Below are positions 36,423 through 37,996 of a stretch of 64,000 nucleotides of DNA, in pieces. The translations under genes were made by a program, and so were the position numbers. The DNA is from a virus. Its lineage: Duplodnaviria > Caudoviricetes. How positions within the stretch are numbered: the stretch's first letter is position 1; each line of letters starts with the position of its first letter. The stretch lies in the IMG/VR virus record IMGVR_UViG_3300032116_000009; one strand, written 5' to 3'. Under the pieces are notes generated by a model that was given only the letters and a program-made list of their open reading frames with translations, ran no database searches and was not told where the DNA came from.

Positions 36423-36630
36423 GTTAGGGGTGGGGGGTGAGAATTGGCTTTACTCACAACCGGGAAGGTTTCACTAGCCTAACGTTATTCCCAGTACTTA
36501 GGTTCTCTCAGGTAGAGAGTTCTATACCTTTGATTTCTCAACGATACAGCGGGCACCACCCCTAACCTACTACATTACTCCGTACATAACCACAGGAGTT
36601 ATTCTGTCACACCCAGAGAACTTCCGTCGA
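36423..36630 (-). ncRNA. about 200-nt structured RNA between tRNAs, resembling the manA RNA motif
   Basis: Perfect 11-bp long-range helix 36423-36433/36556-36566; no ORF; family identity from recall. Confidence 0.55.
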
Positions 36631-36640
36631 AATTCTCAAG

Positions 36641-36750: not shown

Positions 36751-36832
36751 TGTCGGTGAAAGGACTTGAACCTTCACGGATTACTCCATATGGGCCTAAA
36801 CCATACGCGGCTACCAATTACGCCACACCGAC
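36751..36832 (-). tRNA. tRNA-Leu(UAG)
   Basis: UAUGG-UUUAGGC-CCAUA, long variable arm. Confidence 0.93.
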
Positions 36833-36892
36833 AGTTGGTGACTTCGGATATGATGATCCCGAAGTCTTATGAAAGAACTTATGTCCTTTCAA

Positions 36893-36970: not shown

Positions 36971-37047
36971 TGCCGTTGTGGGGGAATCGAACCCCTACTT
37001 CTCTAACTCCCTTGTCGGGGTGTCCTGACCACTAGACTACCAACGGC
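36971..37047 (-). ncRNA. aberrant tRNA-like element without a canonical anticodon loop
   Basis: Intact acceptor (GCCGUUG/CAACGGC-A), D-arm and T-loop UUCGAUU; central arm CCCCGACAAGGG. Confidence 0.7.
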
Positions 37048-37050
37048 ATT

Positions 37051-37125
37051 TGGTGGCGGGGGGAGGAATTGAACCTCCTTCCTGAAGCTTATGAGACTTC
37101 TGTGCAACCGTTACACTTCCCCACA
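37051..37125 (-). tRNA. tRNA-Met(CAU), 1:72 mismatch (initiator-like), CCA encoded
   Basis: GAAGU-CUCAUAA-GCUUC; lacks the three G-C anticodon-stem pairs typical of fMet. Confidence 0.85.
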
Positions 37126-37139
37126 ATGATAGCAGCATT

Positions 37140-37365
37140 TCACTGCTCGTAACACTTTCTTTACAGGGCTGTTATCACCCCGTCTCTCTAAACTAGGGCA
37201 GTAGACTTACTGCGAGAGAATGCAACGATGTTGTTTGCGTTTGTTTTTTGTCCCGTCAACAGATACAACCTTACTACCCCGTCGAAACCTTGGCAACCCC
37301 TTGCAATGGAGTTGTGGGGAGTCGAACCCCAGTCCGAAGCAACAGAATTTGCATCCTCTTGAACA
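37140..37365 (-). ncRNA. ssrA: circularly permuted two-piece tmRNA; tag ANNIVAFSRSKSTALV* at 37238-37188
   Basis: T-arm and 3' acceptor strand (UGGGG-UUCGACU-CCCCA-CAACUCC-A, ends 37307) precede the 5' strand GGGGUUGCCAAGGUUUCGAC (starts 37300); G3:U70; cyanobacterial-type ANNIV tag. Confidence 0.9.
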
Positions 37366-37371
37366 TAGTAT

Positions 37372-37400
37372 ATAGTATCAGAAAATTGTTCGGTTGTCAA
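37372..37400 (-). promoter_or_regulatory. sigma70 promoter of tmRNA, TTGACA-N17-TACTAT with extended -10 TG
   Basis: Read directly. Confidence 0.75.
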
Positions 37401-37487
37401 CGGAGAGAGAGGGATTTGAACCCTCGGTGAAATTACTCCCACACAGACTTTCCAGGTCTGCTCCTTAAGCCACTCGGACACCTCTCC
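37401..37487 (-). tRNA. tRNA-Ser(GGA)
   Basis: CAGAC-CUGGAAA-GUCUG, long variable arm. Confidence 0.95.
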
Positions 37488-37525
37488 AGTAGAAACATCA
37501 TACCATAGACATGATGTTTGTCAAG

Positions 37526-37996
37526 TCATACAAAAATATATTCTTTCCATTCTGCAACTCTACTTTTCTGAAGATCTAAAACGACTTTACTAAAAGGAGC
37601 ATGAGGAATCTTTTTTAAAGCCATGTTAGTTTCTTTAAGAAGAAGATTTCCTTTTTTGGAATTACATGATGCACAACAAGTTACTAAATTTTCCCAAGTA
37701 TCTTCTCCACCTCTGGACCTAGGAATAACATGATCTATTGTTAGATTAGTTTTAGATCCACAGTATTGACACTCATTATCGTCTCTTTTATAGATCATAG
37801 ATCTAGTTGGATAATCAGTTTTACCGTGTGTGAAGGGCAATTTTACATAATTAACTAAACGAATAATTCTTTTTGTAATTAGTTTTGCTTTTTCTTTGAA
37901 CAAGAGTACTATGGCTCTTTTCCAATTTGTAAAGTGAATTGGTTCATAGGAGCTGTTCAGAACCAATATTGTTGAATGTGGTTCTACTATTTCCAT
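37526..37996 (-). CDS. HNH endonuclease
   Basis: RD...CQYCG....[26 protein letters not shown]. Confidence 0.95.

What the first reader, a model, noticed from the sequence alone, without database searches (positions are those of the whole stretch)
37140..37400. Phage-encoded circularly permuted (two-piece) tmRNA with a non-canonical degron
The acceptor piece precedes the coding piece, separated by only 6 nt (TTGCAA), with G3:U70 and a dedicated sigma70 promoter. This permuted layout is known from picocyanobacterial hosts, supporting capture from such a host. The tag begins like cyanobacterial tags (ANNIV) but ends in -ALV rather than the usual -AA recognised by ClpXP. The phage may rescue stalled ribosomes while changing the fate of tagged proteins. 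I am not aware of a characterised permuted tmRNA in a phage.
Basis: partly seen in the sequence, partly recalled or inferred. Interest (0 to 1): 0.85.

Follow-up and report, generated by a model that had tools for sequence, protein, structure and literature searches.

The report
Cyanophage two-piece tmRNA, altered tag end
A freshwater cyanophage carries its own intact split ("two-piece") ribosome-rescue RNA; such phage genes were already listed in a 2022 survey, but its peptide tag ends in Leu-Val instead of the Ala-Ala found in nearly every host, a change that recurs and is conserved across cyanophages.

Summary
On the minus strand, 37131-37381, lies a circularly permuted tmRNA gene (ARAGORN; Rfam cyano_tmRNA 116.6 bits against a cut-off of 70). 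It sits inside a tRNA array of about 30 genes in a freshwater T4-like cyanophage. The 6-nt spacer, the G3:U70 pair, the sigma70-type promoter and the tag ANNIVAFSRSKSTALV are all as described.

Permuted tmRNAs in phages are not new. A 2022 survey (PMC9004378, Table S1) lists S-CAM1, S-CAM3, S-CRM01 and S-SSM7, and this scan has noted cyanophage tmRNAs on other DNA before. The 6-nt spacer is also the commonest host form.

The tag end appears undescribed in the papers I could search:
- 344 of 345 evaluable host-family genomes, and 120 of 120 host loci, end in Ala-Ala.
- Only 7 of 37 distinct cyanophage tag frames do. The rest end -LV, -AV, -TV, -TA, -PA or -AAL.
- These endings are held by synonymous codon changes (Leu CTA/TTG/TTA; Val GTT/GTA/GTC).
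- They arose several times: the AU test rejects a single clade.

Related complete phage genomes encode no SmpB, ClpP, S41 peptidase or PDZ protein. Metatranscriptome contigs cover the gene.

Best reading: a working phage tmRNA that uses host factors and carries a selected, probably weakened or re-aimed, degron. Processing, charging, tagging and proteolysis remain untested.

The parts
37372..37400 (-). Sigma70-type promoter: -35 TTGACA (37400-37395), 17-nt spacer, extended -10 TG-n-TACTAT (37377-37372). The predicted start is near G37364.
   Evidence: Consensus scan, 10 of 12 matches with TG. Both boxes are conserved in position across the window clade and the S-CAM1/3 clade, while the spacer sequence varies. 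The start site is inferred.
37307..37364 (-). Acceptor piece (first in gene order): 5' strand of the inter-piece helix, T-arm (37330-37316), 3' acceptor strand CAACUCC (37314-37308), discriminator A37307. CCA is not encoded.
   Evidence: Covariation in 21 phage homologues: T-stem and acceptor pair 5 change on both sides, and G3:U is kept in 21 of 21.
37301..37306 (-). Intervening spacer UUGCAA, predicted to be removed on maturation.
   Evidence: It is hypervariable among relatives 92-93% identical overall (TTCCGA, TGACAA, TAACAA, TAACTA) while its flanks are invariant. A relative's RNA contig, by my reading of its listed differences, has TAACGG.
37131..37300 (-). Coding piece: 5' acceptor strand GGGGUUG (37300-37294), D-loop-like GGUUUCGACG, 3' strand of the inter-piece helix, tag frame, pseudoknot and terminal hairpin.
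   Evidence: Rfam alignment. 12 of 35 predicted pairs have compensatory double changes.
37188..37238 (-). Tag reading frame: GCA resume codon to TAG stop, encoding ANNIVAFSRSKSTALV.
   Evidence: The identical peptide is kept in 4 IMG/VR contigs through synonymous changes (ATC/ATT, GCA/GCT, TCT/TCC, GTT/GTA).
37150..37183 (-). H-type pseudoknot after the tag: hairpin ACGGGG/CCCUGU whose loop UAACA pairs with downstream UGUUA.
   Evidence: Read. The second stem covaries in relatives: CGAC/GTCG, AAGTT/AACTT, GATCA/TGATC, AGTCT/AGACT, AGTTAT/ATAACT.
37132..37146 (-). Terminal hairpin that closes the coding piece. No U-tract follows it.
   Evidence: Compensatory GCAG/CUGC versus GCCG/CGGC in relatives.
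37400..37488 (-). Upstream neighbour tRNA-Ser(GGA). Its 3' end abuts the -35 box.
37054..37125 (-). Downstream neighbour tRNA (anticodon CAU by reading), 6 nt after the tmRNA hairpin. RNase P cutting here may define the 3' side of the coding piece (inferred).
   Evidence: Rfam tRNA 48.8 bits. Not listed by ARAGORN.

Best explanation
This is a working, phage-lineage two-piece tmRNA gene. It is transcribed from its own sigma70-type promoter inside the phage's tRNA island. Host tRNA-processing enzymes are expected to mature it: RNase P at G37300, then 3' trimming of the 6-nt spacer and CCA addition, which would leave an acceptor piece and a coding piece held together by a long helix. Host AlaRS should charge it through G3:U70 and A73. 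It should then act with host SmpB to free ribosomes stalled on broken mRNAs during infection of freshwater picocyanobacteria, adding ANNIVAFSRSKSTALV to the nascent chain. The hydrophobic Leu-Val end replaces the host's near-invariant Ala-Ala and is itself under purifying selection. It most likely acts as a degron of altered strength or protease preference, so that ribosome rescue is kept while the proteolytic fate of tagged proteins is retuned. Shown: gene identity, structural and peptide-level conservation, the host-phage contrast, recurrence of the change, and coverage of the gene by contigs in RNA libraries. Inferred: processing, charging, SmpB dependence, tagging, and any effect on proteolysis.
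For: Identity: ARAGORN and two Rfam models score well above their cut-offs. Structural constraint: G3:U is invariant in 21 of 21 phage homologues. The acceptor stem, T-stem and inter-piece helix show compensatory changes (12 of 35 pairs), and the pseudoknot stem has six different complementary versions. Translation-level constraint: the window clade keeps the same 16-aa tag with four synonymous site changes against one Ser-to-Thr change. Subclades only 67-75% identical keep terminal Leu-Val with CTA/TTG/TTA and GTT/GTA codons and with TAG or TGA stops. The -ATV clade uses GTT, GTC and GTA for the last Val. Host contrast: 120 of 120 host loci end -AA. In an even sample of the host family, 344 of 345 evaluable genomes end -AA, and the one exception ends -VLA. 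Only 7 of 37 distinct cyanophage tag frames end -AA (Fisher p about 1e-36, not corrected for relatedness). Scans with one near-identical pattern (one gap range differs) gave hosts 120 of 120 and viral loci 2 of 29. Control: proteobacterial-type phage tmRNAs from the first IMG/VR scan keep -AA in 32 of 37 distinct tags, and all end in Ala. Recurrence: with the tag columns removed, the tree needs 6 changes, and the AU test rejects one clade for non-AA rows (p 0.005) and for Val-ending rows (p 0.0005). The last residue is only ever A, V or L, never polar or charged. Host dependence: no SmpB in five related phage genomes (three IMG/VR genomes rated 100% complete by CheckV and two isolate records). 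Promoter boxes are conserved. RNA: metatranscriptome contigs from two studies cover the gene with -ALV intact. In one run the tRNA/tmRNA contig has word depth 408, against 13 for the adjacent coding contig. Prior: in Synechocystis, Val-ended ssrA variants (AAV, ASV) leave more reporter than LVA (PMC2860132).
Against: There are no raw reads, so neither the two pieces nor their ends are shown, and contigs in an RNA library can stem from DNA. One RNA contig spans 36886-37791 at the same depth as its flanks; it may be a long precursor or DNA. Charging, SmpB binding and tagging are untested. The single-sequence fold is not more stable than shuffles (z -1.39). The effect of -LV on any cyanobacterial protease is unknown, and the AAV/ASV data come from E. 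coli-derived tags in a distant cyanobacterium. The diversity of endings between clades would also fit relaxed constraint on proteolysis.
Confidence: 0.6

Rival explanations
1. The tmRNA works in ribosome rescue, but the tag end is merely drifting. In a cell that lyses within hours, proteolysis of tagged proteins does not matter, so the Ala-Ala degron decays and -LV has no function of its own.
For: Seven different endings occur among cyanophage clades. No phage-encoded protease or PDZ reader was found. From my own knowledge (Withey and Friedman 1999): growth of a lambda-P22 hybrid phage needs charged tmRNA but not tag-directed proteolysis.
Against: Within clades the ending is held through synonymous changes at both last codons and through changes of stop codon. 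The terminal residue is only A, V or L, although single-step changes of an Ala codon also give Asp, Glu, Gly, Ser, Thr and Pro. Ala-to-Val at the last position recurs independently. Tag length stays constrained.
Confidence: 0.25
2. The RNA acts mainly as a decoy that soaks up host SmpB or competes with host tmRNA. This would block host trans-translation rather than perform it, as proposed for the tRNA-like-domain-only molecule of mycobacteriophage DS6A.
For: The phage encodes no SmpB. PMC4131195 reports that a DS6A-like molecule inhibits tmRNA.
Against: A full coding piece is kept, with a conserved in-frame tag, synonymous-only variation, a pseudoknot and a stop codon. That is not expected for a pure decoy.
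Confidence: 0.07
3. It is a non-functional remnant: a captured host gene decaying in the phage, or a piece of an integration site.
For: tmRNA genes are common integration sites, and fragments of them occur in prophages (PMC9004378).
Against: The gene is complete and scores 116.6 bits. It is conserved with covariation across dozens of phage contigs. It lies in lytic T4-like cyanophage genomes next to tRNAs. The phage copies form old lineages outside the host clade.
Confidence: 0.03

Closest known systems
Two-piece (circularly permuted) tmRNA of marine and freshwater picocyanobacteria (Prochlorococcus, Synechococcus, Cyanobium; Rfam RF01851)
   Same: Same permuted order, a short spacer (6 nt is the commonest host length), G3:U70, T-loop and GGUUUCGACG motifs, an Ala resume codon, the tag core ANNIVxFSR, and a tag of about 16 aa.
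   Different: Hosts end ...APVAA (344 of 345 genomes), while this tag ends ...STALV. The window gene lacks about 10 nt upstream of the resume codon relative to the Rfam consensus. Phage copies fall outside the single host clade. This gene has a TTGACA/TACTAT promoter inside a tRNA array.
Permuted tmRNAs of the cyanophages S-CAM1, S-CAM3, S-CRM01 and S-SSM7, listed in Table S1 of Buchholz et al. 2022 (PMC9004378)
   Same: Homologous genes: 76-79% identity over the core, in T4-like cyanomyoviruses beside tRNAs, unannotated or overlaid by 'hypothetical protein' in the records.
   Different: That paper only lists them as 'Permuted' and does not discuss their tags. Tags found here: S-CAM1/3 ...STVAA (canonical), S-CRM01 ...LVAAL, S-SSM7 ...ELVTA, Sf-FS3 ...ELATA, AG-345-P14 ...QLATA. 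The window's -ALV clade has no cultured member among the records searched.
Two-piece tmRNAs of the OM43 phage Melnitz and pelagimyophages (alphaproteobacterial type)
   Same: Phage-borne permuted ssrA in aquatic T4-like myophages, proposed to sustain hijacked translation.
   Different: A different tmRNA lineage (ANDxxxALAA tags) that keeps the canonical -LAA end. Melnitz has a glutamine riboswitch at the gene's 3' side; none is seen here.
One-piece tmRNAs of mycobacteriophages (Bxz1 group) and Bacillus phage G; the tRNA-like-domain-only RNA of DS6A (PMC4131195)
   Same: Phage-encoded ssrA without a phage smpB reported.
   Different: Those genes have the standard, unpermuted order, and DS6A lacks a tag frame. 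In 2014 the tmRNA Website listed no cyanophage entries.
Engineered ssrA tag variants LVA, AAV and ASV (Andersen et al. 1998; tested in Synechocystis by Huang et al. 2010, PMC2860132)
   Same: Changing the last residues, in particular to a terminal Val, tunes reporter stability: ASV > AAV > LVA in accumulation. The phage endings -AV, -TV and -LV resemble such tuned tags.
   Different: Those are laboratory variants of the E. coli tag. The phage endings are natural and selected, and they have not been assayed.

Membership tests
Two-piece (permuted) tmRNA, cyanobacterial lineage (Rfam RF01851 / RF04321) | Scores above the curated Rfam gathering threshold | tested here: met
   RF01851: 116.6 bits against 70. 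RF04321: 80.1 bits against 47.
Two-piece (permuted) tmRNA, cyanobacterial lineage (Rfam RF01851 / RF04321) | Permuted gene order: T-arm and 3' acceptor strand lie upstream of the 5' acceptor strand and tag frame | tested here: met
   ARAGORN 'tmRNA*'; direct reading.
Two-piece (permuted) tmRNA, cyanobacterial lineage (Rfam RF01851 / RF04321) | Alanine identity elements: G3:U70 pair and A73 discriminator in a 7-bp acceptor stem | tested here: met
   G:U is invariant in 21 of 21 homologues, while pair 5 shows four pair types.
Two-piece (permuted) tmRNA, cyanobacterial lineage (Rfam RF01851 / RF04321) | Inter-piece helix and pseudoknot supported by covariation | tested here: met
   12 of 35 pairs have double changes. 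Six complementary versions of the pseudoknot stem.
Two-piece (permuted) tmRNA, cyanobacterial lineage (Rfam RF01851 / RF04321) | Short tag frame with an Ala resume codon and an in-frame stop, conserved as a peptide | tested here: met
   GCA...TAG, 16 codons; synonymous-only variation in close relatives.
Two-piece (permuted) tmRNA, cyanobacterial lineage (Rfam RF01851 / RF04321) | Tag ends in Ala-Ala (typical of the lineage, though not required for being a tmRNA) | tested here: not met
   Ends Leu-Val. Hosts: 344 of 345 end Ala-Ala.
Two-piece (permuted) tmRNA, cyanobacterial lineage (Rfam RF01851 / RF04321) | The precursor is cut into two RNAs; CCA is added; it is charged with Ala; it binds SmpB | not testable with these tools
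   Only assembled contigs of RNA runs were available. The spacer's hypervariability fits removal.
Phage-encoded tmRNA (survey of PMC9004378) | The gene lies in a phage genome, not in host DNA or a prophage remnant | tested here: met
   The window carries the cyanophage RNA motifs PhotoRC-II, manA and wcaG, cyanophage gene matches, and tail lysozyme, HNH and 6PGDH neighbours. A relative with a 93% identical tmRNA lies on a 248,835-bp IMG/VR genome rated 100% complete.

The most novel reading that the evidence does not exclude
Cyanophage tmRNAs, as a group, have repeatedly swapped the host's ClpX-type Ala-Ala tag end for Val-ended or Thr-Ala endings, and they hold these under purifying selection. 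On this reading the viruses deliberately uncouple, or re-aim, the proteolysis arm of trans-translation while keeping ribosome rescue. That would be a natural reprogramming of a host quality-control pathway by a virus, and a ready-made series of tuned degrons for picocyanobacteria.
Probability: 0.4. Interest if true: 0.7.

Novelty: new variant of a known kind. Interest (0 to 1): 0.55.

Why it matters
tmRNA tags are a textbook case of a nearly universal C-terminal degron. Here a whole viral branch of one tmRNA lineage departs from it in a patterned, selected way, while its hosts stay almost invariant. If the phage endings change how fast, or by which protease, tagged proteins are removed, that would show phages tuning host protein quality control as well as supplying tRNAs. 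It would also separate the two functions of trans-translation, ribosome release and proteolysis, in a natural system. The question can be tested directly. Cultured pairs exist with non-canonical tags (S-SSM7 on WH8109, Sf-FS3 on WH8102, S-CRM01 on LC16) and with a canonical tag (S-CAM1 on WH7803). The gene is also missed or mis-annotated as a hypothetical protein in the GenBank records I inspected.

Tried and rejected
- No whole genome is held for the window, so searches of its own genome failed. No near-identical record exists in the phage collection.
- I looked for a phage-encoded partner or reader of the new tag in five related phage genomes (three IMG/VR genomes rated 100% complete and two isolate records). 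SmpB PF01668, ClpP PF00574, S41 C-terminal peptidase PF03572, PDZ_2 PF13180 and CCA-adding enzyme PF01743 gave no match, while the control genomes did match.
- The single-sequence RNA fold gave z -1.39. The minimum-energy fold mispairs the tag region, so it is uninformative, and I relied on comparative data instead.
- RNA runs are held only as assembled contigs. They cannot show transcript ends, strand or the two pieces. The end of a high-depth contig at 37353, near the predicted 5' end of the acceptor piece, is at most a weak hint.
- The idea that the 6-nt spacer is unusual is rejected, because it is the commonest host length.
- Other reading frames of the tag region do not give an -AA ending (read).
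- The literature search for 'phage-encoded tmRNA' returned nothing. Cyanophage genome papers that contain the word tmRNA do so only in their reference lists.
- I did not run a complex prediction, because no protein-protein claim is made.

Full report
**1. What is there**

ARAGORN finds 29 RNA genes in the window, all on the minus strand. One is a permuted tmRNA at 37097-37396 with tag ANNIVAFSRSKSTALV. Rfam confirms it independently:
- cyano_tmRNA RF01851 at 37131-37381, 116.6 bits against a cut-off of 70, E 6.6e-31;
- tmRNA_permuted RF04321 at 80.1 bits.

ARAGORN's 3' limit overruns a tRNA at 37054-37125 that only Rfam reports, so 37131 is the better end.

Reading the minus strand gives this order:
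- promoter-like TTGACA-17-TACTAT (37400-37372);
- a leader that starts the inter-piece helix;
- T-arm 37330-37316;
- 3' acceptor strand 37314-37308 and discriminator A37307;
- spacer UUGCAA 37306-37301;
- 5' acceptor strand from G37300;
- GGUUUCGACG and the return strand of the helix;
- tag frame 37238-37188;
- a pseudoknot 37183-37150;
- a closing hairpin 37146-37132.

G3:U70 is present and CCA is not encoded.

**2. Context**

The window is a cyanomyovirus:
- It carries the cyanophage RNA motifs PhotoRC-II, manA and wcaG.
- Its best DNA matches are Synechococcus phages DSL-LC03 and S-SRM01.
- Genes around the RNA island encode HNH endonuclease, a Dps/ferritin-like protein, tail lysozyme, carbamoyltransferase and 6-phosphogluconate dehydrogenase.

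The exact stretch occurs in freshwater and lake metagenomes. No whole genome is held for it. A relative whose tmRNA is 93% identical lies on a 248,835-bp IMG/VR genome rated 100% complete.

**3. Is it a constrained, working RNA?**

In an alignment of 21 phage homologues:
- the G3:U pair is invariant;
- acceptor pair 5 takes four pair types (UA 12, AU 6, CG 2, GC 1);
- the T-stem changes on both sides;
- 12 of 35 predicted pairs, mostly in the long helix joining the two pieces, show compensatory double changes.

The loop of the hairpin after the tag pairs with a downstream stretch. In relatives this second stem has six different but complementary sequences.

The spacer differs in almost every close relative while its flanks are identical. 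That is what removal during maturation predicts.

The -35 and -10 boxes keep sequence and spacing across the window clade and the S-CAM1/3 clade, while the DNA between them varies. Other phage clades place the gene directly behind a tRNA with no promoter.

**4. Is the tag translated?**

Four IMG/VR contigs, 92-93% identical overall, encode the same 16 residues. They differ in the tag frame only by synonymous changes. A fifth has one Ser-to-Thr change.

Subclades only 67-75% identical (tags ...SKVATLV...TS[LV]PSLV) keep the last two residues, Leu-Val, through CTA, TTG or TTA and GTT or GTA codons and through TAG or TGA stops.

So the peptide matters, and specifically its C-terminus, not only the RNA.

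**5. Hosts against phages**

Hosts:
- A pattern scan of one genome per species returned 120 picocyanobacterial loci. All 120 tags end in Ala-Ala, mostly ...APVAA.
- In an even sample of 401 genomes of the host family, 348 hold the tag start and 344 hold the canonical ...Ala-Ala-stop.
- Of the four exceptions, two are chance hits without a tmRNA, one is cut by a contig end, and one is a real variant ending -VLA.

Phages:
- Cyanobacterial-type tmRNAs in IMG/VR contigs and phage isolates give 37 distinct complete tag frames. Their endings are LV 9, TA 8, AA 7, AV 6, TV 5, AL 1 and PA 1.
- Scans with a near-identical pattern, differing only in one gap range, gave hosts 120 of 120 and viral loci 2 of 29 ending -AA.
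- Fisher tests give p between 1e-14 and 1e-37. These ignore relatedness.

Control: proteobacterial-type phage tmRNAs caught by the first IMG/VR scan keep -AA in 32 of 37 distinct tags, and all end in Ala.

Tags of isolates:

| Phage | Tag end |
|---|---|
| S-CAM1, S-CAM3 | ...STVAA |
| S-CRM01 | ...LVAAL |
| AG-345-P14 | ...QLATA |
| S-SSM7 | ...ELVTA |
| Sf-FS3 | ...ELATA |

**6. Evolution**

All 104 distinct host sequences form one clade (support 99) on a long branch, and every phage copy lies outside it. The phage genes are therefore an old phage-borne lineage, or fast-evolving copies, and not recent captures.

With the tag columns removed, the non-AA state needs six changes on the tree. 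The AU test rejects a single clade for non-AA rows (p 0.005) and for Val-ended rows (p 0.0005).

The terminal residue is only ever Ala, Val or Leu. Endings such as ...APVAV differ from the host ...APVAA by a single C-to-T change. Recurrent changes filtered towards hydrophobic residues argue against plain decay of the degron.

**7. Partners**

Five related phage genomes (three IMG/VR genomes rated 100% complete and two isolate records) encode none of the following, although the control genomes matched:
- SmpB;
- ClpP;
- S41 C-terminal peptidase;
- PDZ_2 domain;
- CCA-adding enzyme.

The RNA must therefore rely on host SmpB, AlaRS, RNase P, CCA-adding enzyme and proteases. This is an inference.

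**8. Expression**

Metatranscriptome contigs from two studies cover the gene, and the -ALV codons are unchanged in them. In one run the contig carrying the tRNAs and the tmRNA has word depth 408, against 13 for the neighbouring coding contig. This suggests abundant stable RNA rather than carried-over DNA.

Contigs cannot show ends, strand or the two pieces, so processing is not shown.

**9. Mechanism proposed**

The phage supplies tmRNA along with about 30 tRNAs to keep ribosomes available while host mRNA and the host translation apparatus decay.

The tag core ANNIVxFSR is kept as in hosts, but the end is retuned. In Synechocystis, Val-ended ssrA variants are weaker degrons than LVA (PMC2860132). 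A weakened degron, or one aimed at another protease, is therefore the most likely effect.

The main rival is neutral drift of a degron that no longer matters. The within-clade conservation speaks against it.

**10. Novelty**

Buchholz et al. 2022 (PMC9004378) found 53 permuted tmRNAs among 18,146 phage genomes. Their Table S1 lists S-CAM1, S-CAM3, S-CRM01 and S-SSM7, but they did not analyse tag ends. The 2014 tmRNA Website paper lists only mycobacteriophage and Bacillus phage G entries.

This scan has noted cyanophage tmRNAs before on other DNA, including tags ending ...TTALV and ...AVAV.

The gene class is therefore known. I did not find the systematic, selected, recurrent departure of cyanophage tags from the host Ala-Ala end described in the papers I could search.

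Noticed in passing
window 36427-36634 (-): A full-length manA RNA motif (100.2 bits) sits inside the tRNA array, between tRNA-Val and tRNA-Gly. No gene lies downstream for it to regulate, which is odd for a motif filed as cis-regulatory.
   Followed up: no
window 38569-38653 (-): ARAGORN calls a 'tRNA-???' with a two-base anticodon, and Rfam's tRNA model gives 46 bits. The anticodon stem CCGCC/GGCGG encloses about 19 nt instead of 7, so it may hold a small insert or be a tRNA-like RNA.
   Followed up: partly
window 36972-37047 (-): A tRNA-shaped stretch between tRNA-Asn and the CAU tRNA matches only the tRNA-Sec model, at 30.5 bits and below its cut-off. ARAGORN does not call it.
   Followed up: no
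window 37054-37125 (-): A tRNA with anticodon CAU (Rfam 48.8 bits) that ARAGORN misses. As I read it, the first acceptor pair is a U-C mismatch, which recalls initiator tRNAs.
   Followed up: no
window 36788-36886: A high-depth metatranscriptome contig replaces these 97 bases with 202 other bases. This looks like an indel polymorphism between tRNA-Leu and tRNA-Asn among strains of this phage.
   Followed up: no
L252 (host genome G065): This is the only host-family genome, of 345 evaluable, whose tmRNA tag does not end in Ala-Ala: ANNIVRFSRQPAPVLA.
   Followed up: partly
L001, L002, L248 (S-CAM1, S-CAM3, S-SSM7 records): In the GenBank records the tmRNA genes are unannotated or overlaid by 'hypothetical protein' CDS calls, for example SSSM7_025 and BOW87_gp053.
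   Followed up: partly
L021-L025, L248, L249 and relatives: In the marine clade ARAGORN starts the tag seven codons upstream (AK[TS]SDTA + ANNIV...), and many tags carry an internal insert (...ILTREFARTDE...). An earlier follow-up in this scan described the N-terminal extension.
   Followed up: no
window 37526-37996 (-): An HNH endonuclease gene lies inside the tRNA island, directly upstream of tRNA-Ser and the tmRNA. S-CAM3 also has an HNH gene in its tRNA/tmRNA region.
   Followed up: no
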